A stretch of 63,995 nucleotides of DNA, the filler included, from Chrysochromulina tobinii (Eukaryota), in assembly GCA_001275005.1 (NCBI GenBank). It is 7 parts of 7 records of this genome, joined end to end, with 100 filler letters (N's around TTAATTAATTAA, not from the genome) between each part and the next. Parts side by side here need not be neighbours in the genome. Positions count along the whole stretch, not along the records: positions 5,941 to 22,185 come from JWZX01000807.1; 6 more parts are not named here. The stretch is one strand, 5' to 3'. Position 1 is the first letter of the stretch. Every line of letters begins with the position of its first letter. Shown here piece by piece: positions 7,596 through 34,100 of the stretch. The position numbers and the translations under genes were made by a program. The notes under the pieces are model-generated. The model was given only the letters and a program-made list of their open reading frames with translations, made no database searches and had not been told where the DNA came from.

Positions 7596-8411
7596 GCAGC
7601 AGGTGAAAATTAGTGTGAGACGCGTGCGTTCCAGAGCCAGAGTTGGGAGAGCTCGTCTGGAAATACACTTCCTTTTCCAAATCTGGGTTTTTTGGATGGA
7701 TCGGCAAGAGTTCAACAGAAACACACCGCTCCTAAGAAACTACCCAACCCAACATTCAAGCACACTCCAAACCATGCCGACGACTGCTATGTGGGGGTTT
7801 GGGTGTGGCGGCCATGAGATTTTTGCTACATAAACTGGGGCGTGCTCAGGCGTCGTGCGTGCGTGGCTGCGTGCTTAGCGTGCGGCCCATCGGGCGCGCC
7901 CACGCTCACCCATTCGACCATTGCGAGTGGCACGCTCGCACTCACACGTTGCATGGTGGCGGGTGGTGGGGCACGTGGGCGAGGTCTCGGCGGGTCTCGC
8001 TCTCGGCGTGTACAAGCCGGGGTAAAGCCGGGGTACATTCAACAACAGTTACGGCAGCTCGGCAGGGTGCGAGCGAGGCTGCGACTTGTGGGCTGCGAAC
8101 GATCAAGTGCCCCCCTCAAAAGTCAAAACCCCCAGCCCCCAGCCCCCCGCACCCCCAGGAGCCAGGTGCGGACGCTCCCCGCCCACTTGCGCCCCCCGTG
8201 ACCGGTGACCCCCAGGAGCCCCCAACCCCCCCAGACCCGAGTTTACATGTACTAGCGATAACATGCGATAGCTTTAGCCCTACCTACGCCCCAAAACTCG
8301 AGTGGAAACCGCCGCGCCTCGAAGTGTCCGAAACGGCGAATTTGAACTCCACTGGAGGACTTCGAGTACGGCGAACGCGTGCAGCGAACGCGCACATTTC
8401 GGAATCAGCAG

Positions 8412-9806
8412 ATGAGCCGGCCAGCGATGAGCATGGCACATGTCATCTCGCCGAGCGCACGGAAGGCACGTGCGGGATCATCGACTCTCGTCGACCTGCA
8501 GCACAAGCAGGCCGAGCTGGTGTACTCGACCCTCGCCCCCATCTTCCTTCGCACGCGGACTGGGCAGGAGCCTCGCGTGACAGCCGAGGATGAGGCCCTG
8601 CTCAAGGCACAGCTTCTGGCGGGCAAGGCCGACGACGGCAGCATCAATGCGCGTATGGTCGCCGCCGAAAAGGGCGCGCAGATGGGCGGCACGATGTCGC
8701 CTAGGAGCGTGCTGGAGCCCCATCGTGAGATGACGGTCTTCAAACAGGCAGTCACCAGCAAGCTCGCCGATCCGGACTTCATCAAGAAGGTCGCGAACGA
8801 CCTATCTCAGTCCATGCTCTCAGCCTCACACCACACACATGAGCGCGCGCACAAGCGGCAAGGCCTACAGGATGGGGGCCGCGAGGAGACCTGCAGCTTC
8901 CCACAGCATGGGGGCCCACGGCCGCCACACATGATGACGAAACCCAAGTTGCGCCCCGGACTCGCCACCCTTTTGGGATCCGATGCTCCAGAATCCTCTG
9001 CAGACTCTGTGACCTTGAACGTCTCGTCCTACAAGTACGGCGCGTACACGACCATCAGCGAGCGCACTCCGAGTGCATCTTCCTCGACAACGACGGAGGC
9101 GTCGTGTTTGGCGGCCGCGACGGAGGCGGCCGTGCTGGAGCGCCTCGAGCAGCAGCGCCGCTCGACGCCGCTCGACTTGCACGCGCTCCTTGCCCACCCG
9201 GATCCTCTCTCGGTGCTCGGGGAGCGTCTCTATCAACTCATCGAGTGCCACGACGTGGCGCTGCCTGGCAAGATCACGGGCATGCTGCTCGACGGGCTGT
9301 CCTTGGACGAGCTGCACTCGTTGCTCGTGAGCGTGCCTCCCGGCGACGCAGCCGCCGCGATTGCTTCATGGATCGGCACCGCACAGCAGGTCTTGCATGA
9401 GGCCGCCGAGGGCATCGCCGCCTTTCCGTGCGAGACGATGCCAAACTCGCCGTTGAAAGGCACTGCTGCTGTCGAGGTCGAGGTGGGAGGCATTGCCGAG
9501 AACAGCGTCGTGTTGGTTGCTGCGGCGGCCGTCCACGCCGCCGCCACCGCCACCGCCGCCGCCTCGGGGGGCGCCACCGCCGCATGCGCACCCGCTGCTG
9601 ACGAAACCCTAACCGCCGCATGCGCACCCGCTGCTGACGAGTGGCGTGTCGTCGCGAGATTGCCACGCGGGCGTGCATCCAAGGGCACCGCCGCCGCCGA
9701 CCCCGCCCCCGACGCCGCCGTCGCCGCCGCTGCAACGCAGGATAGCAAGGGACATCCAGCAGCGAGGTCGCCGCGCAAGCGCAACGGCAGGAAGCAGCAG
9801 GAGTGA
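8412..9806 (+). CDS. Protein with an MLLE/PABC-like domain
   Basis: LGERLYQLIE...PGKITGMLLD...L matches the PABP C-terminal MLLE signature; no RRMs seen. Confidence 0.7.
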   Translation: MSRPAMSMAHVISPSARKARAGSSTLVDLQHKQAELVYSTLAPIFLRTRTGQEPRVTAEDEALLKAQLLAGKADDGSINARMVAAEKGAQMGGTMSPRSVLEPHREMTVFKQAVTSKLADPDFIKKVANDLSQSMLSASHHTHERAHKRQGLQDGGREETCSFPQHGGPRPPHMMTKPKLRPGLATLLGSDAPESSADSVTLNVSSYKYGAYTTISERTPSASSSTTTEASCLAAATEAAVLERLEQQRRSTPLDLHALLAHPDPLSVLGERLYQLIECHDVALPGKITGMLLDGLSLDELHSLLVSVPPGDAAAAIASWIGTAQQVLHEAAEGIAAFPCETMPNSPLKGTAAVEVEVGGIAENSVVLVAAAAVHAAATATAAASGGATAACAPAADETLTAACAPAADEWRVVARLPRGRASKGTAAADPAPDAAVAAAATQDSKGHPAARSPRKRNGRKQQE

Positions 9807-10354
9807 GCCGTTACCCGCCACGGTTTCGTCAGGCGGCGGAGAGCCGTTCCCGCCTGCCCACCTGCCACGATCGCAGCCAGTCGCCCCGCACGAGGCGGAT
9901 CGAGGCCATTACCTAATTTGGGCCATGCGACGCTGAGCATCAAGTGATCTTTCTATTTCAGGTGCCGTGTGCTACAACTAGGAACTTACTAGGAACCACG
10001 TGGCGGAACAGCACGGCACCAGGCATGCGTGCCTCGGCATGTGATCTCGCATGTGATCTCGCATCGCGCCCAAAGGCACAGAGCGCGGTGCCAAGCAGCG
10101 CGTGAGCGTGCTTCCATCCTCATTATGATTTATGTGATATGTCTCGGCACACGGACCATCCGGTGTGAATATATTGTCTACCATGCAGAGATACGCTAAA
10201 TCGACTAAGTACACATGCACGCCATTAGCGCTGTGTAGTGGACGTGCTCACAAACGAGACCTGGTATGCTTGACCGACGACTCTACAGTCTACACTCAGC
10301 TCCTCCTGTGGGTCCGGCAGACCTCACAACCCTCTGCCGTGTGTCCCTCGCTCA

Positions 10355-10855
10355 TCACAGCTCATCTTTGCCACGTCGCCATCCGTGCGCGAAGTCCGCC
10401 ACGTCGCGCATAAACTCCTTGACAAGATTCGCCTGGAATCTTCCGCGGATGTAGGGGTGTTTCTTCATGTCAGCGGTTTCTTCTATGCCGAGGATCTCAT
10501 CGACTCGGTCCTGCACAATGTTCAGCGGCCCGTCGATCATGTACTCGCGCTTGTCGAGGAGAATTGGCCCAACGCGTTTGACAAATTCGCGGAGCTTGGA
10601 GATCTGGTCGGGTCCGCCAACGTCGGGCACGTCATCAGCCCACTTCGCAAAGTCCTTCTTCGCCTCCTCGACTGTGAGGTCGCGGCCGAGCTTCTGCTTG
10701 AGCTTCCTGTAAAAGGTGAGAGCCTTGGCAGTGACATCGTTCCCGAGCTTACCGTCAGGGGTTTTCACCTTGGCTTCGTCCCATCCGGGCTCACTTGCGC
10801 CGTGCGCGGTTGACGCGAAGACTAGAAAGAAAGCCGACGCAGCCAACGTGCGCAT
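10355..10855 (-). CDS. Small ER-lumenal protein (signal peptide plus C-terminal KDEL), 166 aa
   Basis: Signal peptide MRTLAASAFFLVFASTAHG; ends GKDEL-stop. Confidence 0.85.
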   Translation of the reverse strand: MRTLAASAFFLVFASTAHGASEPGWDEAKVKTPDGKLGNDVTAKALTFYRKLKQKLGRDLTVEEAKKDFAKWADDVPDVGGPDQISKLREFVKRVGPILLDKREYMIDGPLNIVQDRVDEILGIEETADMKKHPYIRGRFQANLVKEFMRDVADFAHGWRRGKDEL

Positions 10856-11184
10856 TTCCGGAAAAGGGACGATACAGCAAGAGACTAGCCGTGAACATGT
10901 TATGAACATGTGTGAACAGTCCTCCGCGAGTAAATATGACGACAACCGGGAGTCCGGGACTGAGGGTGACGTGAGGGACCCGAAACGGCACACGCCCCGC
11001 ACGCGGTGTCCATGGGTGTCCATGTCTACCCACAGCCATCGTACCGCGTTAGCTTATTAATCTCGGACCTGTTCGAAGCTTCTCGACCGAGGACAACCGC
11101 CGGGAGCGGAGCGCTCTGTTCTCCTCGAGCGGAGTCACGGAAGAGGCTCAGATTGCTTCAGATTGCTGCCGGGTCTCAAGATTA

Positions 11185-14100
11185 TTACTCCGAGTCTCGG
11201 AAGAGTCCCGGAAGGCTCAGATTGCTGCCGAGATTGTTTGACGAGGCTGCCCTTCCTAGGAGCGCACGCCGCTGCAGCGCGCCGGTACGACGCGCGATCT
11301 CCCTCACGACCTGGTTGCGCTGATCGACGGTCAGTACCCCCTCCTGCATGGCCCAGTCGATGGCCTCGAGCGCGACGCCGTCAGAGCGTACCGATGAGCG
11401 GGAGAGCATGACCGCCTGGTTGTGATGGCTGATGGTGATCGTCATCGGCTTCTTGAGCCCAAATAAGGGTTCGAGCTCAAACGGCTCACCATCGACCTGC
11501 ATGGAGCATGCGATGAGGGAGGCCATCAGCATGCAATCAGGGAGGCCATCAGCATGCAACGAGGGAGGGTCATCAGCATGTGAGGGAGGCCATCAGCATG
11601 CAATGAGGGAGGCCATCAGCATGCAATGAGGGAGGCTGCGCATGCAACGAGGGAGGCCATCAGCATGCACGAGGGAGGGCCATCAGCATGCAACGAGGGA
11701 GGCCATCAGCATGCATGAGGGAGGCCATCGACCTGCATTGGCAAGCGCGTCGTGCCCTCCTGCGTGATGGTCACTGACGAGGCTTGGCAGAGACGGTGCG
11801 CCGATCCCTTGACAAGCTGTGTGCATGCAGACACATGCAGGCGCAGTCAGGCACACTCAGAGGCAAGCATAGGCAAACAGAGGCAATCAAGAGGCAATCA
11901 AGAGGCAATCAGACATCCTCGCAGAGAATCAGAGGCCATCATAGGCAATCGGAGGCCATCAGAGGCCATCAGAGGCCATCAGAGGCATCAGAGGCCATCA
12001 GAGGCCCAAACATCTTTCATGATAAGGCAATCAAAGGCAATCACCTGCGCGAGCCCAAGCTGCAGCACGCCCTTGATGGCGACCACCTCCAGCAGCCGAT
12101 CGTCCATCGAGGCGCTGACGAACCCTGACGAAACCAGCAGCCGATCGTCCGTCAAATGCCACGACGCGTCGCTGAAGCTCTTCGTGCGAGATCGCATCCC
12201 CCCCGCAGCTCCGCCGGAGCTCCCGCCCGCGAGATCGTTGCGAGATCGCATCCCGCCCGCAGCTCCGCCGGAGCTCCCGCCCACGAGATCGTTGCCGCAA
12301 GCGCTGCCGGTGCTTCCGCTCCGCACGTGCCTCGATGTCGATGCGCCGCCGCCGCCGCCGCCGCTGCCGCCGCTGCTGCCGTTACCCCTGCTGCTGCCGC
12401 TGCTGCTGCTGCTGCACCCAAACGGGTAGACGCCGGAGGCACTCGAAGGGCGCGGCGGCCCGAAGCCAGAGCTCACGGAGCGGCCGCGCACATCCCGTCC
12501 AAAAGCGTCATCAGCATCCGCCGCCGCCGCCGCCGCCGCTGCCGAGACTGCCGCCTCGGCGTACTCGTCGGACTGGTCGGGAGAGTCCATAGAGAGTCTT
12601 CGGTCCGTAAAGTCCATGGAGCTCGGGCGAGACATGGCGCGCGCCGACAAGTTATCCCCCGACCCCCCCATGCGGACACGCGCACCGATGGTGCTGTCTC
12701 GCCCTGCCGAGCACTCCCCTCCATCGCCCCCCTCGGGGGCCAGCTGGTGCGCAGAGGCGGTGCGGGAGGGCATCCGGGACGAGGCCTGAGAGGCACGGCC
12801 GCTCGTGGAGGCTGGGGCGGCGGACGGCGACGGGTGGACTTCCTCGTCGTCATCCCACTCACCTGTGAACGAGGGGGAAGGGGCGCCGTGGTGAGCACTC
12901 GCATGCAAGGCACGGAGGTCTCGTCGTCATCCCACTCACCTCCCCACAGGTCTGTTCCACCTGCATAGGACGCTATGTTGAGCACGATGATGCCCTCTGT
13001 GCCCTCGGGCAGCTCGTACCTGCCCAGAGGTGATCCAAGGCAATCAAGTGTTCCCATTCAATCCGAACCAATGCCATGCAATCCAATGCAATCCAATGCA
13101 ATCCAATGCTCGTACCGCTTCCCATCAGCGATCACCGTCAACTTCTTGCACACATGCTTGAAATCGCGACCATGTAGCAGCTGGCGCGCGCCGTAGCGCA
13201 GGTACATGAGCTTGTTCTTGAGGACGTTTGTGAATTGGTGCGGCTCCGACTGCCAATCAGTGGCAATCAGTGGCAATCAGTGGCAATCAGTGGCAATCAG
13301 TAGCAATCAGTAGCAATCAGTAGCAATCAGGCGCGGCTCCGACTGCCAACGATTGAGCCGTTCGAGACCTCGGTCAATGGTACTCAATGGCACTCAGCCA
13401 GGGCGCTCACTCAGTGGCACTCAGTAGCAATCAGCGGCACTCAGTGGCACTTACCTGCCGACGATTATGCCATTCAAGCGCCACGTTGGCATCCACACCT
13501 GTGGGGGGGGCGCCGTGGTGAGCACTTGCATGCTTGAGGAGCGCCACGTTGGCATCCACACCTACGCCAAGGTAAATCTGCATCGTAACCGTGACTGAAT
13601 CAGTAGCAATCAGTAGCAATCAACGGTTACCTACGCCAAGGTAATTCTGCATGATGATCTTACGAGCGGGTCGACGAGTATCACTCCCGCGCTCGGGACG
13701 ACGCTCGGGAGCCGTGATCAAGCTCTTGGCCACGTGGCTCTTGGCGACGCTCTTGGCGACGCTCTTGGCGAGGCTCTTGGCGACGCTCGGGCGGGGCGGA
13801 GGGACCGTTGCGTCCTCAAAGGCCACCTGATGAGGAACGTCATCCAGAGGCACTCAGAGGCACTCAGAGGCACTCAAGGGCGTGGTACAGTCTTCGAAGG
13901 CCACGTGGTTTAAGGCGAGCCGTTCCCTTTCGTGAGGGTCATCAGTGGTCATCGGAGGGTCATCATTAGTCATCGGAGGTTCATCAGTAGTCCTTAGAGG
14001 TCCTCAGAGGTCCTCAGAGGTCCTCAGAGGTCCTCAGACGTCCTCAGAGGTCCTCAGAGGTCCTCAGAGGTCATCAGCACACCTCCCAACGATCGAGCAG

Positions 14101-14931
14101 TGCCACTTGAGCAGAGTCAACCTCCTCGAGGAGATTGACGAAACTGCGTCCCATACGAGTGCCACCGCCCCATCCGAGCGCACGCGCAAGGTCATTCCCC
14201 GTGCCCAGCGGCAAGATGGCCACGGGCGGCGTGTACTCGAGATGTGCATTGTCCAGGAGGGAGAGCACCCAGCCTACGGTGCCATCGCCCCCACACACTA
14301 AGACGCGGAAGCGGCCGACAGTGCGGAAGGACTGGAGGGCCTGCTCGGCGTGCCCCAGCGACAAGTCCACCACCTGGTGCGCCGAGAGCAGCGCCTTGAG
14401 CTGCACGAGCGTTGCCTCGCCTTGCCGACCACCGCTGCCTCGGTTGATGAAGACGAGCAGCGGCGTGCGATCTCGCGCAACCTCCGCCGAGGGGCGATAG
14501 GTCCATGAGTTCTGCCAGAGCTGCGGCTGCAACGTCGGCGTGCGCAGCTCCGCTATGCTGTGGCGCACGCGCTGCGCGAGCGACGCGGCGCTTCGCAGCC
14601 GGAGCTTCTCCGAAGCGGCTTCGGCGCCCTTGGCTGGGGGGCTCGTGGGTGGCGTCGCCTCGCCAAAGTCGAGCAGCTGCTCGGGAAGGATGAGCCGCCA
14701 GAGGCGGGCGCGCGCCTCTTCCAGCTGCCGTGGATCAAGGTCGGGCGGCGTCGCTTGCGCGTGCATGATCGAGATGAGGTAAATCAGCGCGAGCGTGGCC
14801 GTGAGGAGTGCGATTGTCATGAGTGGCGGTGGGTCCGAGATCACCACCGGCTCGGGCTGTCGCGGCCAGGCAGCCAGGTCGGCGTGTGCAAATGGAGGGC
14901 CCACCATGCCGCCGTCCGCGAGTTCGTCCAT
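11185..14931 (-). CDS. DGK: Diacylglycerol kinase, 8 exons, ~838 aa (14931-14083, 13826-13631, 13498-13455, 13249-13116, 13019-12940, 12862-12045, 11816-11733, 11496-11185)
   Basis: Motifs PLLVFINRGSGG, GGDGTVGWVL, LPLGTGNDLAR, MQNYLGVGVDA, LNIASYAGG, DDRLLEVV and PMQVDGEP; all GT-AG introns, and phases join into one frame. Confidence 0.92.
12863..12910 (-). repeat. Shared intron 3' module TGCATGC..GCTCACCACGGCGCC-Y-rich-CACAG (representative copy, DGK)
   Basis: Other copies end at acceptors 13499, 18472, 19633, 19713, 20564, 20637, 22057 (ends AAG), 31507 and 31970. Confidence 0.9.
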
Positions 14932-15156
14932 GATGCGTGTGCAAAGCCGCCCACGCGCCGCACCAGGGACCCCCCTGGAACGCGGGACGGAGAGGAAGTT
15001 GACGGGAACACGGAAGGGCGACTTTACATGAACAGAGAGAATCATCACTCTCGAATCACGTTGCAGATGGGGATGTCTGTCTAAGAGACGGTTTCTCCTC
15101 CCGAAACCGTCCTTCCCTGCAACTGCCTTGCAACCCCAACGTCTTCGTGTAACGCC

Positions 15157-16596
15157 ATGCTAACGAGGCCAGCCTTCCTCGCGCCGCTCAACGTACCAGC
15201 CATCGCCGACGCGTGCGAGACAGTGGCATTGCCAACTCACGGGTCGCGTCGGTCACGCTCTCGGCGCCAGCGCTCCAACAAGGACAACCGAGGAAGAAGC
15301 CCGTCTTCCAAGAGCGTCAAGAGTCCGTGCGCATCTCCGCAGCAGCTCATGAGCCCCGGAAGCCCCACGCCCAAAAGCCCGTCTGCCAAGAGCGTCAAGA
15401 GTCCTTGCACTGGCGCATTTCCGCAGCAGATCATGAGCTCCGGAAGTCCCACGCCCAAGTTCACCGCTAGCAACATTGGCGTACGTCTGGTGGGTGCCGA
15501 GGCGGCCTCCCTCCACACGCATGCTGCTGCCCTCGAGCGCAAGGCGGCGCGTCTCCAGCAGCGGTCCGACCAGATGGCATCGCCAGCTCGCCCGACGGTG
15601 CACGAGCTCGTCAACGAATGGCAGCGTCTGAAGCAGCGGTCGGACGAAATGATGGTCATGCATGAGCACTTGGGCACTTGGATCTCGTCGATCTCGTCGG
15701 TCCAGTCACTTCGGACCAGGGGGGATTACTCTCTCCAGCCGCATGCCGATGCACGTGAGCTGCCCCCTACGGCAGTTGAGGAAGAGCCCGAGAGTGCCGA
15801 GGCAGAGGATGCCGACGATGAGGAGTCCGCCGTGCAGATGCATCTCACGCTGACCATCCCAAACGAATGCTCAGCGCAGGATGCCGACGATGCAGGGGCA
15901 GGGCCGCGCCGCCAGTGGCAGCCGCCCAGCTGCCCGCACGCTGCCCCCAAATCCGCTCGCCGCGGTAGCCCTGCGAAGGCCGGTGAGGATGAGCGCCGTG
16001 CCGAGCGTCGTGCAGAGCGTCGTGACGAGCATCGTGACGAACCCCGAAACGAAGCCAAGGATGAGCGCCGTGACGAGCGCTATGGCGCCCACTCGCAGCT
16101 CCTTGCGCTCCAACGTCAACTGATCCGCCGTGTCGATGCCCTGGAGGGGCGCTTTTGCACCGCCCCCTGGACGCCACCCCTCGCAGCCGCCTCACCGGCA
16201 CCGGCTGCCCTAGCAGATGCCTCACCGACCGGCGCGATGGGGATGCTCACCCCCTCGTACGGCGATGGTGCCAGCTTTGGCGTCAGCGTCGAGAGCTCGC
16301 TCGATCTGACTCCGGGTGCCCGGGACGGCGCCCATGATCGCGCCCAGGACGGCGTCGAGAGCTCGCTCGATCTGACTCCGGTGGCGCACGGGACGGCGCC
16401 CGGGACGGCGCCCAGGACGGCGCCGCGCACGGTTGCTGGGCGGCAGGAGCGAATCCGACGCGCATGCAAGCTCGAGGGGATCTCGTGCGCGAAGTGGATC
16501 TCGAGAGCGATCACGCTCAGATTCGATCTCGAGGCAGCGCTGCTAAACGCGCCCATCATGGCGCCTGCTTGCACGCTCGAGCGCGGCGTGCTGTAA
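15157..16596 (+). CDS. Hypothetical low-complexity/coiled-coil protein with internal duplications
   Basis: 479-aa ORF; SPSxKSVKSPC twice and VESSLDLTP twice. Confidence 0.6.
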   Translation: MLTRPAFLAPLNVPAIADACETVALPTHGSRRSRSRRQRSNKDNRGRSPSSKSVKSPCASPQQLMSPGSPTPKSPSAKSVKSPCTGAFPQQIMSSGSPTPKFTASNIGVRLVGAEAASLHTHAAALERKAARLQQRSDQMASPARPTVHELVNEWQRLKQRSDEMMVMHEHLGTWISSISSVQSLRTRGDYSLQPHADARELPPTAVEEEPESAEAEDADDEESAVQMHLTLTIPNECSAQDADDAGAGPRRQWQPPSCPHAAPKSARRGSPAKAGEDERRAERRAERRDEHRDEPRNEAKDERRDERYGAHSQLLALQRQLIRRVDALEGRFCTAPWTPPLAAASPAPAALADASPTGAMGMLTPSYGDGASFGVSVESSLDLTPGARDGAHDRAQDGVESSLDLTPVAHGTAPGTAPRTAPRTVAGRQERIRRACKLEGISCAKWISRAITLRFDLEAALLNAPIMAPACTLERGVL

Positions 16597-17159
16597 TCAC
16601 GCTGTGTGGCGCGTGTGACCTGAGAATGACCTGAGATATTGACTCACGGTGTGCGACGCCGACACGGAGTTTGGAGTTTCTGTCGCCATCGGAAACGGGT
16701 ACATCTAGATCTACGATCTAGTCGGCTGTGGTGGAAACGCCGACCTATACGTCCATGCTATACGAATACGTCCTACCGACAACCGAGGCGCCCGCGGGCG
16801 CGGCCGGCGAGCGGCGTCCGGTCTCTAGTACCGTCTACTGTTAACGTCTACTGTACACCGATCACCGTGTACCTGTACGTCGCCGACGACGTACGGGACG
16901 ACCAGGACCACGAGCGCCTTGCGCGCAGCTCGCACCTCTACTTTTGTAAACGATTTAAGGCGGAGGGATCATCAGCGCACAGCGGTACGTTCACAGTGTC
17001 TATGACTCGCGCGTCTTCGTAACGTCTTCGCTTGACTATATGTGAGTATGATTCTCGGTGAACATCTTCGAGCATGCTTTGTACTGGTGCAGCGGGGCGC
17101 GCGTGCACACGACATCAGCTGTAAACTCGTGCGGCACGCCGGAACATATTATGATCGGA

Positions 17160-20100
17160 TTACATTGAATTCAGGAGGACGATGACCACAACTACCACGA
17201 GAACTACGCAGCACACGCCGCAGCACATGGCATACTTCTTGAAGAAGAAGAATGGGTTGAACAGATTGAAGTCGATGCCCAGCCCGTCGAAGAACGAGGG
17301 GCGCACCGGGTTCGGAAGGAACGGGTGTTGGTTTGGCGGGTCACGTCCCTGGCCCACAGGGCGCTGGATCGCCTCGTATCTCGGGATGAGCTCGATCGTG
17401 AGGCGCACCGTGCCCTGATTGCCCATGTAATTCGGGTGCGTCGTCTGCACGAGCACGTTCTCCCTCTTCACACCGCCGCCGCGCCGCAGCGCCAGTTCAC
17501 AGATGGTCTTGAGCGTCAGTTGCGCCTCGCCGATGGCGTCGTTGGACGAGAGGATGTCGGCGTCCCAGAGCTGTATGAAGAGCCTCGGCGACTTTTCGGG
17601 CAGTGCCATCGGCCAAACCATCCGCCAAAAGAACTCCGCATCTGATGAGGGAGGTCATCAAGAGGCCATCAAGAGGTGATCCAGAGGCAATCAAGAGGCG
17701 ATCAAGAGGCGATCAAGAGGCGATCAAGAGGCAATCAAGAGGCGATCCAGAGGCAATCAAGAGGCGATCAAGGCAGCACGAACCGCCAGGCGATCGGTGG
17801 TGCACGTCCGTCCTGAGCATCGAATAGGGCTGGTGGCCGTGCGGTGTGATGGCTACGAAGACGTCCGACGTGCCACCGCCGCCGAAGAAGGACTCGTCCC
17901 GCGCTTGGACGTCGATCGCATCCCACACGATGACACGCAGCTCGAACATGTCGGTGGTCGGTGGCTCGATCGGGACCATCGGCTGGGCGATCGCGTACCT
18001 GATGAGAGAGGCACTCAAAGCTGATGAGTGAGGCACACAGAGCTGATGAGGGAGGCAATCAGAGCTCATCGGCTGGGCGATCGCCTACTTCTTCTCCAGG
18101 ATCTCAATCTTGCACACGATGAAGCCCTGGAAGAGGGGCAGAGGGGCATGCGCAGGGGGGGTGAGTGGCAATCAAGAGCAATCCATCGACGGAGTGGCAA
18201 TCAATAGTAATCAATAGCAATCCAGAGCAATCAAGAGCAATCCATCGACTGAGTGGCATGGACCGGGGGGCTCAGCGGCCACCAAGAGCAACCACGTGGC
18301 ACTCCATCTCACCTGCGCGTTCGTATTGCCAGGGTTGGTGAGCGGCCGCATCTCCTTCGGCAGCGCGTCGTTCTGCTGCTTGGTCTTCCACGTCTCAGAA
18401 AAGTAGCGGTCCTCGAGGTCGATGACCGTCTTGCCCAGCAGCGATTCGCTCAGCAGCTGGTAGTCCCATACCTGTGGGGGCGGGCGCCGTGGTGAGCGCG
18501 TGCATGCTGGGGGCTGGGATCGAATCCCTCCTCGGAATCACACACCTCGAGATGTAGCCGAGATTGGGTCATCAGAGGTCATCAGAGGTCATCAGCACAC
18601 CTCGAGATGTAGCCGAGATTGGCCGGGCAGGATCGCCGACAGCTCGAAGGATTGGTAGAAATCGGGCTCGAGCGAGGGCGGCAGCGCAATGTCGCGCGTG
18701 GTGCGCTCCTGACCCTCGACGTTGTAGACCTTTAGGAAGGGCTCGGGCTCTTTTCCACCCGCCCTCGGGGCGAGTGACGTGGCGCCATACACATGCACGC
18801 GCACGCGGCACGGCTTCTCGGCGAAGAGCTTACGCAGGTTGGCCGGAGGGTCCTCTTTGAGAAAGAGCTTGAGCTCCTCATCCCCCTCATACCTGATGAG
18901 GGAAGCCATCAGAGCTGATGAGGGAGGCCATCAGAGCTGATGAGGGAGGCCATCAGAGCTGATGAGGGAGGCCATCAGAGGTCATCAGAGGCAATCAGAG
19001 CTTGAGCTCCTCATCCCCCTCATACCTGATGAGGGAGGCCATCAGAGCTGATGAGGGAGGCCATCAGAGGCAATCAGAGCTTGAGCTCCTCATCCCCCTC
19101 ATACCTGATGAGGGAGGCCATCAGAGGTCATCCGAGGCCATCCGAGGCCATCCGAGGCAATCAGAGGCCATCCGAGGTCATCCGAGGTCATCCGAGGTCA
19201 TCAGCAGTCATCCGAGGTCATCCGAGGTCATCCGAGGTCATCCGAGGTTATCCGAGGTCGTCCGAGGTCATCAGCAGCGCTCGTACTTGATGACGCGCAG
19301 CTTCATCTTGAGCAGCCCCTGGGAGCGCGCAGGCCTCCCGAATTTGATCGGGAATAAGTCGCGCGCAGTCTGCAGCCCCTTGGCGAGAAGGTTCTGCTTA
19401 TACGAGGACGTGGTCGACTCGGGTGCTTTCATCGAGAGAGGGAACAATTGGAAGGGCAGATCATCTTCGAGAAGCTTCTCCATAGGATAGGGCAAGATCT
19501 CCTCCTCTGCCGCACGCGCTTCTTCGTCCTCCTCCTCTTCGCCCCCACCCTCGTCCGGTCCATCGCCTGGCGCCGGCGCGGCGGCCGCGCCCTCCTGCAG
19601 CTCCGGCATCTCGATCGTGCGTGGCCCCAAACCTGTGGGGAGAGGGAGCGCCGTGGTGAGCATCCATTGCATGCGTGCAGCTCCGGCATCTCGATCGTGC
19701 GTGGCCCCAAACCTGTGGGGAGAGGGAGCGCCGTGGTGAGCATCAGTTGCATGCGTACCTGGCACCGGCGCGACATTCTTTCCCGCCGAGACACTGAGCG
19801 CCTTTGAGCCGTTGGTGGCGCGCGCGACCGACGAGAGGAAGAGCTCATCAAGCTTCTCCTGCGTGGACAGAGGCGGAATGCGAGCACTCAGTGGCTGAAT
19901 GCGAGCACTTAGTGGCCATCAGAGGCCATCAGCGGCCCTCAGCGGCCCTCAGAGGCCATCAGAGGCCATCAGAGGCCATCAGAGGCCATCAGAGGCCATC
20001 AGAGGCCATCAGAGGCCATCAGAGGCCATCAGAGGCCATCAGAGGTCATCAAAGGCGCTCCCTACCTCGTTAGGCGACTTGACGATTTGGAAATGGCCAC

Positions 20101-22166
20101 CCTGCACCTTCTCCTTTTTGATCTTCTCGTCCCGCTCCTTCTCCTTCTTCTGCGCCTCCTCCTCCGCCTCCTTCATCTTGCGAGCCTTGGCCTCTTTGAT
20201 CTTCGCCTGCTCTTCGGGCATGTGCTCGAGCAGGTTGATGGCCGTGATGCCCATCACCGGATCCCAGTCATCGCCCACAAACGGGATGATCTTGCCTGAT
20301 GGCAAGGGCAATCAATGGCAATCAATGGCGATCACGAGCTTGCCTGCTTCGCGCACGCGTACGCCCATCCACCCTGATGGCAATGGCCATCAATGGCAAT
20401 CAATGGCCATCAATGGCCATCAATGGCCATCAATGGCCATCAATGGCGAGCGCAAGCTTGCCTGCTTCGCGCACGCGTACGCCCATCCACGGTGTGTAGA
20501 GCTGCGGCTGCGTCGGCAGTAAGACCTTAAAGTATCGGGTCTCGAGGATGTTGATGTCCGTACCTGTGGGGAGAGGGCGCCGTGGTGAGCACTTGCATGC
20601 AAGGCCTCCGGGTCTCGAGGATGTTGATGTCCGTACCTGTGGGGAGAGGGCGCCGTGGTGAGCACTTGCATGCAAGGCCTCCGGGTCTCGAGGATGTTGA
20701 TGTCCGTACCCGTCCGAAGTTGCGTCCCCGTGATGGACGAGCCGTGGTCGGGGATGCGCCATTCACGCTCCTCGGCTTGCTCATCGCCGTACTCAAACTC
20801 AACGTATCTGATGAGGGGGGCAATCAATGATGTCATCAGCGGCCATCAGTGGCCATCAGTGGCCATCCGAGGCCATCAGAAGCCCATAGAACGTACGGCG
20901 AAGTGAGGAAGCAATCAGAAGCAATCAGAAGCAATCAGAAGCCATCCGATGCCATCAGAAGCCAATAGAACGTACGGCGAAGTGAGGAAGCAATCAGAAG
21001 CAATCAGAAGCCATCCGAAGCCCATAGAACGTACGGTGAAGTGAGGAAGACGGGAGCCCCGAGGACCTCTCGCGGTGCAATCACGGGGTAATCACGGGGT
21101 AATCACGGGGTAATCTCGTACGGCGAAGTGAGGAAGACGGGAGCCCCGAGGACCTCTCGCGGTGGCACGTCGCGACAGCCAACCAGCTGCACCTCGATCA
21201 CGTACGGCCGCATCTCGGGCCGCAGATAGCCCAGTGCACTCACGCCCTCCGTCAGATGGTACTTCGAGAGCTTCGCCGCCTGAGAGCCGCATGCACACAG
21301 TGGCACTCAGTGGGCACTCAGAGGGCACTCAGAGGGCACTCAGCGGGCACTCAGCGGGCACTCAGCGGGCACTCAGAGAGCACTCAGAGAGCACTCAGAG
21401 GGCACTCAGAGGGCACTCAGTGGCACTCAGTGGGGCAATTAGAGACGCAATCAGCGCTCCTCACCTGGGAGGAGAGGTCGACGATGGCAGCACTCTTCGT
21501 GCCATCCGGTGCGTCAAGGCTCTTGGGTGGCTGGTAAGCCCGCAGCTCGAAGGAGCAGAGAAGGAACCCGACGGGGGTCGGGTCATCATCCCCGCCAGCA
21601 TCGAAGTCGAGCTCGGCAAACTTGGGATCGTACAACGGCATCCATGTGGGCTCTCCCGCGCTCCTGATGAGGGGGGGGCAATCAGATCTCATCAGAGGTC
21701 ATCATCAGATGCAATCAACGGCATCCATGCGGGCTCTCCCGCGCTCCTGCTGTAGAAGACCGACACGTACTTAGTGTACGGCCATCAGACGCAATCAGGC
21801 GCAATCAGGCGCAATCAGGCGCAATCAGACGCAATCAGACGCAATCAGACGCAATCCGTCGCCATCAGCAGCGCAAGTACTTGTTGTAGAAGACCGACAC
21901 GTTTTTGGTGTACGGGCCGCTCGGGGCTAATGTACGCCCCATGACAGTGTCACTTGGAGCGAGGTCCTGAAGCGCAGAGAGGCCAAAAGCGGCGCCCGCG
22001 TCGTAGACGCAGACCGAGACCTTTGAGGCGAACGTGAGCTCGCCCGGGAGATGCACCTTGAGGGAGGGGAGGGGGGGTGGCGCCGTGATGAGCACATGCA
22101 TGCTGGGAGATACACCTTGAGGGCGAGCTCCCCGGGAGATACACCTTGAGGGCGAGCTGCTGGTAC
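17160..22166 (-). CDS. Ferlin-family multi-C2-domain tail-anchored protein, 3' part, at least 14 exons, 5' end truncated
   Basis: Motifs LGKTVIDLEDRYFS, FELRVIVWD, TDVHHRS..FFWRMVWP, IQLWDADILSSNDAIGE, GQGRDPPN..LPNPVRP and a C-terminal TM helix. Introns 17642-17783, 17999-18088, 18127-18312, 18472-18600, 18893-19286, 19633-19758, 19859-20065, 20296-20461 (GC-AG), 20564-20709, 20808-21121, 21280-21464, 21664-21880 and 22057-22144 give a consistent frame. Confidence 0.88.
20564..20709 (-). repeat. Intron made of two identical 73-nt units (28-nt downstream-exon copy plus 45-nt 3' module)
   Basis: Exact tandem repeat; removing it restores ...LRTG|TDINILETRYF... Confidence 0.9.
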
Positions 22167-22185
22167 CTGAGGGAGGGGAGGGGAG

Positions 22186-22285: not shown

Positions 22286-25200
22286 TGGTTCGAGCGGCCG
22301 CGCCCCCGCCGGCCGCGCCCCCGCCGGCCGCGCCCCCGCCGGCCGCGCCGCCGCCGCCGTCCGTGCCCATGCCGCCGCCGTCCGTGCCCATGCCGCGGGC
22401 CTCGTGCCCATGCCTACCTATGGCACCACCGTCCGACTCTGCCTTCAGCGGAACTGCCTTCGGTTTCATGGCTGGGGGCAATGGCGGTGGCGGCAGCGCC
22501 CCTGTGTCACCGTCGACCGCTGTCGGCGACTCTGCCTTCGGCTTCATCGCCGCCGCTGAGCCGTCACCGCCGCTGGTTTCGGCCTTCGGCTTTTTTGATG
22601 GCGGTGGCGGCAGCGCCCAGGTATCGCCGTTGGGCGGTGGCGGTTCTGCGTTCGGCTTCATAGATGCTCAGCGTGCGGCGGCTATCGCTGCGAGCCTCGA
22701 CATCTCCAGCCCTGTAAACCAAACCTTACCACCACCTTTGCAATTCTTACCACCCGCGCAATCGCCACCTATGGGGCCGTCACTGTGTGTGTGCTGAGTG
22801 ATCATCATACGTGTGCGTGTGTGTGTGCGCAGCAGCAGCAGTACGGTCAATACGGCGGCGGCGGCGGGCAGTACGGCCAGCCGCAGCAGCCGCAGTTCGC
22901 CGCCGAGCAGTACGGTCCATACGGCGGCGGCGGCGGGCAGTACGGCCAGCCGCAGCAGCCGCAGTTCGCCGCCGAGCAGTACGGTCAATACGGCGGCGGC
23001 GGCGGGCAGTACGGCCAGCCGCAGCAGCCGCAGTTCGCCCAGCCGGAGAGCAGTACGGTCAACACGGCGGCGGCGGCGGGCAGTACGGCCAGCCGCAGCA
23101 GCCGCAGGTTCGCCCAGCCGGCAACCCACGAGGTGCGCCCGATTCGCGTGCAATCAGAGGTCATCAGATGTATTCAGAGACCCTCAGCAGGCCTCACCGG
23201 CCTCAGTGGCACTCAGAGGCTATCAGAGGTCATCAAAATCAATCAGAGACCATCATTGGCGATCAGTGGCCATCAGTAGCCATCAATTGCAATCAGTGGC
23301 AATCAAGAAGGCACCGGGTTCCAAGATTGCCCCGATGGCCACGACGCGTGCTGAGCGTGCGCCGTGTGCGTGTGCGTGTGCGCGTGTTCGCAGCACTTGC
23401 AGGCGACGCCTGGGCAGTCAGCGGCGGCTGCGGCCAAGGCGGCGGCGGACAAGGCGGCGGCGGCGGCAAAGGCGCAGCAAGAGGCAGACGACGCTCAGCT
23501 TGTTGCAGCTCTCGCTGCGAGCCTCGCCATCTCCGGCCCTGTCCCACCACCTCCCCCGCCATCTCTAGCCGGACCGAGGCTGGTCATGTTGCCACTTTCT
23601 TGCCAAACGGCGGAGCGCCTCGTAGTCAACACGGATCCTCTCATGCCCCAGAGGACCCCTTCGGAGCGTATAGCAGCAGACCTCGGCATTCCAGTTGAGG
23701 ACGTACGGGCAAGCCTCGTCGCGGAGCAGGTACGGGAGGACCGCCTCGCAGTTGAGGACGTACGAGCGAGCCTCGTCGCAGTCGAGCACGGCGGGAGTGG
23801 CCCTGAGTGCGGAATGGCCTCTTCCGCCAGCGTGAGGCCGAGCTCGGAAATGTACGACGACATGGACCTCGAGGACCTGAAAGAGCTCGCTGGAAAACGT
23901 GGCATCAAAGTGGTAGGCAAAGGCTGGGCCACATGCTGCCCGCCGAACGGGAACAAAGCGGACATCATAAAGGCACTTGAAGCAGAGCCGCCTGCGCCAC
24001 CCGCGCCTCCGCCGCCGCGACCTAAGCCCCCGCCGCCGCGACCTAAGCCCCCGTCGCTCTGGGAGCCTCCGCCGCCTCCGCCACCCGCATCACCGCCGCC
24101 GAAGAAGAGGGCGTCCGTCGTGCACCTGAGCGAGCACCAGGCGCTCCCGAAACTCGTGGCGCTCGACAAGCCGCTCGTCGACGCGCTCCGCTCGAGCGCC
24201 GTCAAGCTCGTCGACGCCGACCGCATCCGCGACGGCACCATTGCAAAGATCATGCGCCGGCAGGACCTCGAACAGTTCGAGCGCGAGCGCGGAGTGCGGC
24301 TCTTCTTGTCGCCCGAGCGCTCGATCGAGGTGCACGGCAGCTACGAGCGCGAGATCGCCTCGCTGACGTACGGATGGGACACCCCCGACGGCGACGACCC
24401 GACGGGCGAGTACCTGGCCGCGGTCCGCCGGTACCTGCTGAGCGCCTTGGGCGAACACGTGAAAGGCGTCTTCTGGGACTGCCCCTGCCTGCCGCAGGAG
24501 CCGCGCAGCGCGAGCGAAGAGGCGGTGTTCGGCGAGGCGCTCGGCGTGATGGCGCTCACGTACGCGTCGGTGCTCTCGACGACGGTGATCCGGCACACCC
24601 GAGTCCCCGCCCGCCCCGCGTGTCTCGACGGGGTGGTCGTGGTTTACGGCGGCGCGGTGACCGAGCAAGACGTGCGCAGCGGGCTCGCCAGCCACGGCGC
24701 GCTCGCAAGCGTGTGGCGCGACGAGAAGGTCAACCGGTGGCGCGCGCGGTTCCAGAGCCACGCCGAGGCCGAGCGCGCGGCGGCCAGAGGGCAGGCGATT
24801 GTCAACGGCGCGACGCGCCTGCAGACGCTCCACGTCCCGCGCCCGTATGGCGCGCGCGGATGGTGCTGTGAGGAGACCGGCGTGGCCACCGAAGGGGTCG
24901 CTCAGAGTGCCTACTTTCCGAAGCTGAAGGCGATCCTCGACCGGCTGCCGCCCAAGTTGGTCGACATTGACGGCGCGGCGCCCGAGGCGGCGCGCGAGCA
25001 GTACGGTGGGAGCGAGGGCAGGGCACCTCGCATCGAGCGCGTGCGCTCGAGCATCCGGTCGGCGGCCTTTTCGAGCGAGGCCGACCGTGCGAAGGTCGTG
25101 AAGCTGTTCGATGACTACATCACCAAGATTGCCATCGCGATGGCGGGCTCGGGCGAGGGGCAGGCCGGCGAGTACGTCGGCGAGAGGAATGCGGCCGGGG

Positions 25201-25796
25201 AGATGGAGGGGCGCGGCAAGTACGTGTATGCCGACGGCGCTGTCTACGAGGGCGAGTGGAAGGCTGACAAGAAGGAGGGGCGCGGCATCTTCCGGTCTTC
25301 CAGCGGCGCCGTCTACGAGGGCTAGTACAAAGCTGGCGAGAAGGAGGGGCGCGGCATCTTCCGTTGGGCCAACGGCAACGTCTACGAGGGCGAGTACAAG
25401 GCTGGCAAGAGGGAGGGGCGCGGCATCTTCCGGTGGGCCAACGGCAACGTCTACGAGGGCGAGTACAAGGCTGACGAGAGGGAGGGGCGCGGCATTGAGC
25501 GTGCTGCCAACGGCGACGTCTACGAGGGCGAGTTCAAGGCTGGCAAGCGGGAGGGGCAAGGGACGTACCTTTGTGCCGACGGCCGCATCGAGGTGGGGTT
25601 CTACAAGGCAGGCACAAGTGTGGGTGAGCGCGAGAGCGTACTGTGGACGGCCGATGGTTGGACTGCAATCCAGGTGCAGGACGGCAAATGGGTGAAGACG
25701 ATGTCGCTCGAGGAGGCAGAGCGCCGTGTCGAGCGCCTCGGGCTGCCGATGCCCGTCCGCCGGGAGGGCAAGTGGACGGTCGGCCAGCCGGTCTGA
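22286..25796 (+). pseudogene. Multi-exon gene for a UIM / SAP-like / HET-like (with RRM-like insert) / MORN-repeat protein, with an in-frame TAG at 25323-25325; 5' exon structure uncertain
   Basis: LTYGW..DDPTG..L, VFWDCPCLPQ and PYGARGWCCEE (HET-like); about 6 YEGEYKAGxxEGRG MORN repeats; the frame continues past the TAG to 25796. Confidence 0.6.
22839..23107 (+). repeat. 69-nt coding tandem repeat (QYGQYGGGGGQYGQPQQPQFAAE), about 4 copies
   Basis: Units near 22839, 22908 and 22977, plus an out-of-phase unit at 23051. Confidence 0.85.
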
Positions 25797-31100: not shown

Positions 31101-34100
31101 TTACGCTGAGTTACGCCGTAGGTGCACTGCGTCAATGTGCGCCATGAGCCGCTCCTCCATGGCCCGTTGCGAGGCATCATGGGCGAAACGTTCATCATGG
31201 AGCAGTCGCTTCACCCGCCGTTCGGTGTCCAGCGCCCGGCCCAACCAGCCCTCGTCCACGTCGTTTTCACGCTCCTCCTCATCAGGGTGGCCGCGCATGC
31301 GGATGGCCGCCTGCAGCCTTCCCCACAAGCTCTTCGGATGCTCGTCAGGTGGCGCGTGCTCCTCCACGAGCCGTTGGTAACTCGCGCCGTCGTGGGCACG
31401 GTCGGCGTGCGATCGGAGAAGTCCGGAGATTGCCTCGAGCTCCGCCGCGAGATCGAGGCGAGCGCGCCGAAAGAGAACATGGGATCGGACGATGGCGTAG
31501 TCGTACCTGTGGGGAAGCGGGGCGCCGTGGTGAGCGCATGCATGCACGTTACGCCTGGCGGAGCCGGCTGTGGGCGTAGTCGTACGAGTCTGAAACGACC
31601 GCGATCAGGATGTTGAGGAGCATGATCATCACGATGAAGGTGTACGCTAGGAAGAGGCCGACTAGGAAGGGTGTCTGGAACCACTCGCGCTCAAAGTCGC
31701 CAATCATCAGCCGGTAGACCGAGATGAGCGTCTCCGACACGGACACGAAGGCCACATCGACGTCGTCCTCGCCCACCACCACGTCCTCGACGCCTTCGTC
31801 GGCACGAACCAAGGGGCGCGCCGAGCCTCCGTCGGCCTCGAACGGCTGGCCCAGACGTCCTCTGTACGCGAGGATGTAGAACATGTTGCCGAAGGCGAGC
31901 ATCACGAGGAGCATGATGACCAAAAACGAGCGGATATCTAGAGCGATCTGCACGAGGCACAGGACGTACCTGTGAAGAAGCAGGGCGCCGTGGTGAGCGC
32001 ATGCATGCATGGTCGGATATCTAGTGCGATCTGCACGAGGCACAGGACGTACGTGGCAAACTTCTGGTTGATCACTTTGACGAATTTCAGCAGCTCGAGG
32101 TAAAGCAACCCCTGGGTCACCGCGGCCAGTGGCGCCAGGTACTCGTGCTCGATCCGTACAGGCTGCGTGGCCATCTTGGCCGTGAGCGCGAGGGCGCCTA
32201 CCAGGAGCAACCCGAGCAGATTTTGGAAGTCGGAGAGCCAAGCGAGGGCTGAGAGGGATTTGGACGGCGGCTCAGGCGCATCCGGCAGGTCCGCAGGCGT
32301 CAGGACGCCCTGTATCTGTGCGGCGTGCTCGCCGAGATGGTGCATCGAGAATGCCTGCAACAGCTCGCGCAGCAGCCGCACGCCACTGAGAGCCCCTACT
32401 GTGGCGACGAGCGCGCTGTCGAGCGGGCCGAGCGGGCCGTCATATCGCAATACACGCGGCCAGAGGGGTGTGGTGATCGCGAGCAGCGCGAGGATCCCCA
32501 CACCGTCCAGGAGCAGGACGGCCATCGAGAGTGGCCGGGTGAGCTTGGCGTCGAGCACCGCCACGAAGAGATCGGCTCGGACGAGGCGCTCGGTGTCGGA
32601 GGCACTGAGCGCGAGTGTTGCTGGGACGAGTCCATCGAGTGCGATCGCCTTCGCCTCGAGCGCATGCCGTTGCACGCGCGTCATCGGCGCTTCGGACACC
32701 TGCTCAATGAAGAAGATGGCTGCCTGCTGCGAGCGCTGCCCGCCCGCGCCAGCGCCCGATAACCGCCTGACCAGCCACGTGTTGTCGACGTAGTCGAGTG
32801 CCATGTGCTGTACCAGAATCTGTTGGACCGCCGGCAGCGAAACGAGCTCAGCACGCTTGGCGACACTAGGCATGTCGAGCACGGCTGCGACGATGGTAGA
32901 TAGCGGCGGCTTGAACTTATGCGCCGACGGTGCTGACGACACTTCTTCCTGAGCTGCGCCGGCGTCGACGGCCTCTTCCGGCGATGCTGTCGTGAGCGTG
33001 GGTACCACCACGCCAGAGCCCACGCCGGCGCCCATGCCGGCGCCCACGTCAGCACCGCCGCCGGTGGCGGCGCGGGATGGTGTATCGGTCAGCACCACGG
33101 CGAGTCCGGCGGCGCGAAGGTGGCTGCTTGCGCTCCTGCCGCCAGCCTCTCCACCTCCACCGCCTGCTGCGCTGCTCCCAGCGGCGACGCCGCCGAAGGA
33201 TGCGAGAAAGTCGAGCACGGGTACTCCGCGACGGAAGCGTCCAAAGAGTACCCTCTCGATCGCTTGCTTTCGCTCGCGCAGCCTCGCCAAGTTCGCGCCG
33301 CCGCCGCCACTGCCGTCGCCGTTGCTGCCGCCGTCTCTCTTGCCGCCACGTTTGCTCGCTCTCGCATTCCTCCTCTCCGCAATCCTCTCTCGGATCCTTT
33401 CGGATGCGCTGCTCGCCGTAGGCTTGGCACCCACCCGAGTCCACACGGTAGGCCGGTAGAATGGCGCCGCGTCGAGCACGCCCCCCACAACGCCCCCGAC
33501 TCCCCCAACGACGCCCCCCACGACAGAGCCAACGCCCCCCACAACGGCACCCAAAGCATTGACCCCCCCCAGCCCCGTGCGTTGAGTGGTCAGCAGTGGA
33601 CGGTTGCTGTTCATCGAGTTGTACAACGTCTCCTCCTCCCAGCAGTCGCGCTCCTTGCAGTACTGGAATTGCGCGCCGTGGCCGCACCAGCCGGGCACCA
33701 CGCACCACGTCGGCGTCTTCACGATCACAGGAGGACCCTCTGGCCTCGCTCTCTCGTCCAGGCGGTGGCGGTGGTTGACGAGCTGGAGCTCGCCATTCAC
33801 AAAGTCCGCAATCCAGTCCTCCGACAATAGGCCCCGCACACCTCCTGGTGTGCTGAAGCGCCCGTCACTAGCTATCGGCTCCTCCTCTACGCTACTCGGC
33901 TCGCGGACAACGATGGCGTCGAAGTCGGGGGCGTTCTCGTCCGGGTGGCCTATCCGCAGCGTGTTCTCACGCGCCTTGCTGAAGGTGAGAGTGACGCGAT
34001 GGATGCCGATGATGATGGACTTTTGGGCCTTGGGGTTGCCCGTACGTGGGAAGCTGATGAGCTCCTCAGGCCCCTCGTTCAGCGAAACGTACGCGTCGCG

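What the first reader, a model, noticed from the sequence alone, without database searches (positions are those of the whole stretch)
21664..21880. Intron containing a ~66-nt copy of its own spliced exon-exon junction
Seen: 21716-21781 matches the upstream exon end joined directly to the downstream exon start at about 90% identity (6 mismatches by hand count), flanked on both sides by decamer filler. One difference changes CAA|G to CAG|G, creating an internal AG exactly at the junction. Inference: either a fossil of the intron-less ancestral allele left by two successive insertions, or sequence copied from spliced mRNA/cDNA.
Basis: partly seen in the sequence, partly recalled or inferred. Interest (0 to 1): 0.85.

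Follow-up and report, generated by a model that had tools for sequence, protein, structure and literature searches.

The report
Fossil exon joint inside algal intron
An intron in a ferlin gene of the alga Chrysochromulina carries a 66-base copy of the very exon-exon joint that splicing makes, and neighbouring introns show the half-finished forms, so it is most likely the scar of two successive local DNA duplications that each added a new splice site rather than a copy of messenger RNA.

Summary
Confirmed. 21664-21880 (minus strand) is one GT-AG intron, spliced whole in 4 of 4 RNA runs. It holds at 21716-21781 a 60/66 copy of its own spliced junction, present in DNA contigs and in a second strain. 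It is not unique: 4 of 27 hand-curated introns carry their own junction, 20 of 27 carry a copy of at least one flank, and 0 of 702 cross-pairs carry another intron's junction. The half-forms exist nearby: introns that begin with the next exon's start, one that ends in the previous exon's end, and tandem [exon start + acceptor] units (1 here, 3 in the second strain). In two neighbouring introns the intronic copy keeps the ancestral codon; one of these introns is absent in the second strain. Best reading: two successive duplication-insertions, with the internal CAG a former acceptor. An mRNA template is not needed and not excluded; the one cross-intron copy found is unspliced sequence. Closest known: amphioxus 'mirages', duplication/repair intron gain, introners. 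The scan earlier noted the one-sided form in this genome (e1-2577349), not this two-sided one.

The parts
21664..21880 (-). Focal intron (F8), 217 nt, GT..AG, in a ferlin gene
   Evidence: Joint skipping 217 nt in RNA contigs of 4 of 4 runs; open frame and ferlin match
21881..22056 (-). Upstream exon; its last 35 nt (21881-21915) are the source or twin of the first half of the copy
21782..21880 (-). 5' module: GT donor plus decamer filler; holds no AG; filler number differs in the second strain
21747..21781 (-). Copy of upstream exon end (30/35); changes create a CTAA branch-like word (21770-21774, 25 nt before the end) and a terminal CAG (21747-21749): inferred former 3' end of the intron
   Evidence: acceptor matrix score rises from 0.4 to 4.4, real acceptors 0.5-13.5
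21716..21746 (-). Copy of downstream exon start (30/31); first part of the tandem unit that occurs three times in strain L006
21664..21715 (-). 3' module: filler plus the acceptor now in use
   Evidence: score 13.0
21465..21663 (-). Downstream exon
22057..22144 (-). Neighbouring intron F7 with its own junction copy (22105-22129, 14+11 nt); absent in strain L006; its internal copies keep the Tyr codon of L006 and of the two closest orthologs, while the exon has His
22145..22166 (-). 22-nt microexon upstream of F7
   Evidence: RNA loose-end sequence in 4 of 4 runs
13499..13630 (-). Diacylglycerol kinase intron D2 with junction copy (13540-13583, 21/22 + 22/22); the downstream half begins with GT (inferred former donor)
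   Evidence: boundaries from reading frame, no RNA joint seen
13250..13454 (-). Diacylglycerol kinase intron D3 with junction copy (13331-13363, 17/21 + 11/12); upstream half ends in CAG (inferred former acceptor)
   Evidence: boundaries from reading frame, no RNA joint seen
17160..22166 (-). 3' part of the host ferlin gene (C2 domains, Ferlin_C, terminal membrane segment), 13 introns in the window

Best explanation
The junction copy is real intronic DNA that is spliced out whole, and it most likely arose in two local DNA events, each of which likely duplicated about 30-35 nt of exon next to the splice site and put a filler-plus-splice-signal module between the two copies. Step 1 (inferred): a GT donor plus decamer filler entered with a duplicate of the last 35 nt of the upstream exon, and that duplicate, ending in CAG behind a CTAA word, served as the intron's 3' end. 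Step 2 (inferred; its unit is shown to vary in number between strains): filler plus a stronger acceptor entered with a duplicate of the first 31 nt of the downstream exon, moving the acceptor on and burying the old one. Because each event has to restore the coding sequence exactly, the two duplicates meet in register and rebuild the intron-less joint inside the intron. The copying is likely microhomology-guided template switching during repair or replication, with modules taken from other introns, sometimes of the same gene. The copy most likely has no present function.
For: 20 of 27 curated introns carry a flank copy, 9 the upstream, 15 the downstream, 4 both, and all 4 have them joined in register; 0 of 702 cross pairs. 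Half-form 1: 9 of 27 introns begin with the next exon's start, which supplies their donor. Half-form 2: an 82-nt GC-AG intron at L004 5680-5761 ends in a 20/24 copy of the upstream exon end; a 100% identical protein record reads across exactly that joint, and 3 of 3 more distant orthologs run through without the intron and share Glu and Thr with the intronic copy. Strain L006 has three distinct [exon start + filler + acceptor] units where the window has one. L006 lacks intron F7, whose internal copies keep the Tyr codon shared with L006 and the two closest orthologs. Upstream-half copies in acceptor position are more diverged (13/80) than all other flank copies (10/492). Intron F4 holds a copy of the focal acceptor plus 14 nt of exon, i.e. 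an unspliced template in the same gene. No AG lies in the 5' module.
Against: No allele without the focal intron, or without the 3' unit, was seen (two strains only). In the focal copy the amino-acid changes are derived at 2 of 4 sites and unpolarisable at 2, so it keeps no visible ancestral state. The age difference between its halves is not significant alone (5/35 vs 1/31, p 0.20) or pooled with D3 (p 0.11). The 13/80 figure uses lengths set by hand; with the automatic cut-off the contrast is weaker (p 0.001, H1 left out). Step 1 needs an AG at birth while today's exon ends in CAA; it must have been ancestral (Arg occurs in 5 of 15 orthologs, not in the closest two) or made during copying. 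Introns are not more alike within than between genes on average (10.2 vs 9.9 nt longest shared word). The sample is 27 introns of 3 genes; most boundaries rest on frame and homology.
Confidence: 0.68

Rival explanations
1. One complex event: at intron birth a polymerase switched template several times (exon end, filler, back into the unbroken coding sequence, filler, back to the joint), making both duplicates at once; later unequal crossing-over refreshed only the downstream half.
For: F7 looks like such a multi-switch product with short microhomologies at each switch and both halves young; the focal copy begins and ends at short words shared with the filler; refreshing of the downstream half is seen in L006.
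Against: One-sided forms outnumber two-sided ones 16 to 4; the internal CAG and CTAA would be coincidence; the same pattern recurs in D3 and at L004 5680-5761.
Confidence: 0.13
2. A break inside an existing intron was patched from the gene's own spliced mRNA or cDNA.
For: The copy lacks the intron precisely; 4 of 6 differences are A to G on the transcript strand; the alga is probably haploid, so an intron-less homolog is rarely at hand (PMC4580454).
Against: 0 of 702 foreign junctions; no copy reaches a neighbouring junction (none is long enough to test it); the only cross-intron copy is unspliced; A to G is 5 of 23 changes over all copies, T to C 4; F7 shows a junction copy in an intron that a second strain lacks.
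Confidence: 0.1
3. The copy came by recombination from an intron-less allele or paralog during a rare diploid phase.
For: Intron presence/absence exists between strains (F7); meiosis genes are reported (PMC4580454).
Against: The copy's changes are not coding-like (Asn to Tyr in 0 of 15 orthologs, Asn to Ser in 0 of 15); no paralog appeared (weak search); the DNA contig runs unbroken over the exon-intron border.
Confidence: 0.05
4. The internal segment is functional: a 27-nt in-frame alternative exon between the internal CAG and a GT inside the downstream half, or a splicing decoy or structure.
For: Both signals exist and the skip would keep frame; one RNA run has an unspliced contig over 21634-21818.
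Against: Only the full 217-nt joint is seen in 4 of 4 runs; fold no better than shuffles (z -1.55); unit number differs between strains.
Confidence: 0.04

Closest known systems
[quoted passage not shown]
   Same: Units of exon start plus acceptor in tandem, copy number differing between haplotypes, normal splicing kept, both 5' and 3' boundaries affected.
   Different: A mirage repeats one boundary. Here the first unit is preceded by a copy of the other exon's end, which rebuilds the spliced joint, and the modules are new filler rather than a copy of the old intron end.
Intron gain by tandem genomic duplication (Rogers model; reviewed in PMC3443670, passages read; PMC3265369, listing only)
   Same: Duplicated exon sequence supplies a splice site and is left inside the intron; coding sequence unchanged.
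   Different: Needs AG|GT at the site and gives downstream-then-upstream order; the focal joint is AA|GA, the order is upstream-then-downstream, and one splice site comes from a shared module.
Intron gain at staggered double-strand breaks in Daphnia (PMC4202315, passages read)
   Same: Direct repeat of the exon end at the far end of the new intron; repeated internal duplications in young introns; presence/absence between strains.
   Different: Repeats there are 4-12 bp and inserts are unrelated AT-rich DNA; here duplicates reach 13-44 nt and inserts are recurring GC-rich splice-signal modules.
Introners of Symbiodinium, Polarella, Aureococcus and a marine Chrysochromulina MAG (bioRxiv 10.1101/2020.10.14.339549 part 1 of 4; 10.1101/2022.06.06.494994 passages)
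   Same: One splice site carried by a recurring element, the other taken from the target duplication.
   Different: Those have fixed 4-8 nt duplications and whole-length family similarity, often terminal inverted repeats; here duplications are long and variable, only 20-35 nt modules recur, and two events stack at one site.

Membership tests
Spliceosomal intron | GT-AG ends, removed from mRNA | tested here: met
   Joint in 4 of 4 RNA runs
Mirage (amphioxus type) | Tandem unit spanning an intron-exon boundary | tested here: met
   Three units in L006, one in the window
Mirage (amphioxus type) | Copy number varies between haplotypes; normal splicing kept | tested here: met
   1 vs 3 units; single joint in RNA of the window's strain
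Mirage (amphioxus type) | Exonic part is preceded by a copy of the genuine intron end | tested here: not met
   The first unit is preceded by a copy of the upstream exon end; so only the 3' part works like a mirage
Tandem genomic duplication (Rogers) | Both splice sites from a duplicated AG|GT | tested here: not met
   Joint is AA|GA; donor and used acceptor lie in filler modules
Tandem genomic duplication (Rogers) | Intron made of downstream-then-upstream exon copies | tested here: not met
   Order is upstream-then-downstream; F2 and D7 do show the Rogers order in short form
Introner | Many introns similar over their whole length at unrelated sites | tested here: inconclusive
   Among 27 introns only 20-35 nt words are shared and the focal intron is in none of the top 15 pairs; no genome to search
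Introner | Short fixed target duplication (4-8 nt in the papers read) | tested here: not met
   31 and 35 nt here; 8-43 nt across the set
Introner | Terminal inverted repeats or an autonomous partner element | tested here: inconclusive
   No inverted repeat at the focal intron's ends among the 25 listed; partner not searchable; D2's insert has an 8-bp one
Break-repair intron gain (Daphnia type) | 4-12 bp direct repeat of an exon end at the opposite intron end | tested here: not met
   Copies are internal and 31-35 nt
mRNA/cDNA-templated insertion | Copy lacks the intron precisely | tested here: met
   also predicted by the DNA-only model
mRNA/cDNA-templated insertion | Copies of other or neighbouring junctions occur | tested here: not met
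   0 of 702 pairs; small sample
mRNA/cDNA-templated insertion | Both halves equally diverged | tested here: inconclusive
   5/35 vs 1/31, p 0.20; pooled with D3 p 0.11
mRNA/cDNA-templated insertion | Intron older than the copy | not testable with these tools
   Both strains have intron and copy; no ortholog DNA could be fetched

The most novel reading that the evidence does not exclude
Chrysochromulina has its own running way of building and rebuilding introns: separate donor and acceptor cassettes, copied from other introns (possibly through the gene's own unspliced transcript), are inserted one at a time with long target duplications, so splice sites are replaced in turn and the old coding DNA is left inside as a dated record. 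Junction copies would then mark intron births genome-wide and give their order of events, in a culturable, probably haploid alga where gains still segregate.
Probability: 0.35. Interest if true: 0.8.

Novelty: new variant of a known kind. Interest (0 to 1): 0.55.

Why it matters
How new spliceosomal introns arise without a transposon is still open, and most gains have lost their traces. Here three quarters of the introns examined still carry copies of their flanking exons, the intermediate forms sit side by side, one intron is present in one strain and absent in another, and intronic copies keep ancestral codons. That makes the order of events testable by population sequencing and minigenes. 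It is also a caution: a junction copy inside an intron is not by itself evidence of RNA-templated repair. Practical side: these duplications break gene models and collapse assemblies (3 of 6 loci lost a microexon).

Tried and rejected
Assembly artefact: rejected. Alternative exon pair: not seen. RNA structure role: z -1.55. A-to-G editing signature: 4 of 6 in the focal copy but 5 of 23 over all copies; rejected. Clustering of the 5 mismatches: p 0.086, not significant. Local sourcing of modules as a general rule: no difference within vs between genes. Unguided donor/acceptor scan of the whole window was swamped by repeats, so introns were curated by hand; intron F6 was left out because it is cut or collapsed in all loci, and the intron at L004 5680-5761 was found afterwards and is not among the 27. 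Wider sampling failed: no genome held; module patterns gave 0 hits in viral contigs, 0 and then 5 single matches in prokaryote genomes, taken as chance and not examined; records behind the loci not held. The first read-laying run was dominated by filler repeats, so most introns have no RNA joint. A GA donor at the start of the downstream half was considered; all 27 introns give open frames with GT (26) or GC (1), but GA was not searched for. The Emiliania genome paper could not be read.

Full report
Setting. The window is a chain of contigs joined by N spacers; the finding lies in the piece 5941-22185. The host gene is a ferlin on the minus strand (Ferlin_C and C2). The downstream exon is 100% identical to a protein named Chrysochromulina tobinii. 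No whole genome was held, so wider tests rest on this window, six metagenome loci and protein records.

Observation. The intron is 21664-21880, GT..AG, 217 nt; contigs of 4 of 4 RNA runs skip exactly this stretch and show no other joint. One run also has an unspliced contig over 21634-21818. The segment 21716-21781 matches the spliced junction at 60 of 66 positions, 30/35 upstream and 30/31 downstream, without a gap. A DNA-run contig covers 21391-21812 with no difference; 5 of 6 loci hold the stretch exactly and L006, 19/985 divergent in exons, has the copy too.

It is not alone. I curated 27 introns of three genes (18 ferlin, 5 of them from L004; 7 diacylglycerol kinase; 2 of a third gene). 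Boundaries give open frames for the ferlin and kinase genes, the L004 part aligns without gaps to an ortholog over 567 residues, and RNA supports the focal joint and its two neighbours; the rest have no direct RNA joint. Scoring 8 or more, 9 introns hold a copy of the upstream exon end, 15 of the downstream exon start, 20 at least one, and 4 both, always joined in register (F7, F8 = focal, D2, D3). Of 702 foreign pairs none shows a junction copy.

Half-forms. Nine introns begin with a copy of the next exon's start, which supplies their donor, and end in a shared acceptor module. The mirror form is at L004 5680-5761, in a HAD-like gene: an 82-nt intron candidate that ends in a 20/24 copy of the upstream exon end. 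A protein record identical to this gene reads across exactly that joint, and three more distant orthologs run through with no intron and share Glu and Thr with the intronic copy where the exon has Asp and Ile (two close strains have Thr in the exon, so only the Glu site is informative). One of these orthologs then reads into decamer filler, which suggests genomic DNA (inference).

Strain comparison. In L006 the focal intron has three distinguishable units of exon start + filler + acceptor, against one here. L006 also lacks the next intron upstream, F7 (22057-22144). F7's internal copies carry the Tyr codon found in L006 and in the two closest of 15 orthologs, while the window's exon has His. 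The simplest reading is a recent gain that left the old contiguous DNA inside. A collapse of the L006 assembly is unlikely, since it keeps three 82-nt units apart, but cannot be excluded without reads; L001, L002 and L004 do collapse a longer repeat at this place.

The focal copy. Its downstream half starts with GA, so it was probably never a donor. Its upstream half differs from the exon in ways that add a CTAA word 25 nt before its end and a terminal CAG; the acceptor score rises from 0.4 to 4.4, within the range of the weaker real acceptors, and the 5' module has no AG. D3 and the L004 intron show the same: upstream-half copy ending in CAG, 16-19% diverged, with a new CT-A word. These three have 13 changes in 80 nt against 10 in 492 for all other copies (lengths partly set by hand). 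Against orthologs the focal copy's changes are derived at two sites and unresolved at two, so it has drifted or adapted since it became intronic; it shows no ancestral state itself.

Mechanism. Shown: splicing of the whole intron; the copy; recurrence; both half-forms; variable unit number; F7 absent in one strain. Inferred: two successive duplication-insertions, first donor + filler with the upstream duplicate as acceptor, then filler + strong acceptor with the downstream duplicate; selection for an intact frame puts both in register. For D2 and F7 the order would be reversed, the downstream copy being the first donor. The copying chemistry is not shown; short shared words at the switch points and a copy of the focal acceptor plus 14 exon bases inside intron F4, 46 nt identical to an L006 unit, point to template switching on unspliced sequence, DNA or pre-mRNA.

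mRNA template. It predicts foreign and double junctions and equal divergence of the halves. Found: 0 of 702; no copy long enough to reach a second junction; halves 5/35 and 1/31 (p 0.20). One-sided copies dominate 16 to 4. It is unnecessary, not disproved.

Comparison with print. Mirages in amphioxus (PMC3087553, passages) match the 3' unit. Tandem-duplication gain and break-repair gain (PMC3443670 and PMC4202315, passages; PMC3265369, listing only) match in leaving exon copies, not in length or order. Introners with target-derived splice sites (bioRxiv 10.1101/2020.10.14.339549, part 1 of 4; 10.1101/2022.06.06.494994, passages) have short fixed duplications. In the stored, cut supplement of PMC9860276 'tobin' occurs once, in the list of genomes scanned, while the introner table row shown is a marine Chrysochromulina MAG (only the first places were read). 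PMC12130899 does not name Chrysochromulina in its main text; its supplements were not read and may bear on this. The C. tobin genome paper mentions introns once and suggests haploidy (passages). That Emiliania introns are rich in 10-11 bp repeats is recalled, not read. Searches returned no description of two-sided junction copies or of these modules; subscription journals are largely not covered.

Verdict. Real and recurrent; best explained without mRNA; a new two-sided variant of known duplication-based intron building, in a genome where the process seems still active. Interest 0.55.

Noticed in passing
window 22057-22144 (minus); L006 41-90: Intron present in the window's strain and absent in strain L006; its acceptor module resembles that of the intron just upstream, suggesting a locally templated recent gain.
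   Followed up: partly
L004 8926-9078: Ferlin intron F4 contains a copy of the focal intron's acceptor plus the first 14 nt of the focal downstream exon, about 900 nt from its source.
   Followed up: partly
L004 5680-5761 (minus): HAD-like gene intron whose 3' end is a copy of the upstream exon end that keeps ancestral residues; more distant orthologs lack the intron.
   Followed up: yes
L001, L002, L004 near the match to window 22057: Three metagenome assemblies skip the 22-nt microexon 22145-22166 that RNA uses, apparently by collapsing two near-identical acceptor modules.
   Followed up: partly
window 17999-21663 (minus): The public protein model P0001 (430 aa) starts after the focal intron, lacks several exons and ends early; the real gene is a full-length ferlin.
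   Followed up: partly
window 13584-13630 (minus): The 5' insert of intron D2 is bounded by an 8-bp inverted repeat.
   Followed up: no
window 13827-14082 (minus): Intron D1 holds a 13/15 copy of the next exon's start with third-position changes, possibly an old, decayed junction copy.
   Followed up: no
window 18472-18600 (minus): Intron F16: a perfect 22-nt upstream copy is followed by 15 nt that match the next exon at 10 positions, possibly a junction copy with an old downstream half.
   Followed up: partly
window 18893-19286, 19633-19758, 20564-20709 (minus): Introns with internal AG|GT points formed by repeated acceptor + exon-start units; candidates for recursive splicing.
   Followed up: no
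window 31507-31585 and 31970-32052 (minus): Two introns in an otherwise long-exon membrane-protein gene, each an acceptor module behind a 13- or 39-nt copy of the next exon's start.
   Followed up: partly
window 22837-23120 and 25150-25560: Exonic tandem repeats of 69 nt (Gly/Gln-rich; and a second array that looks like MORN repeats, recalled).
   Followed up: no
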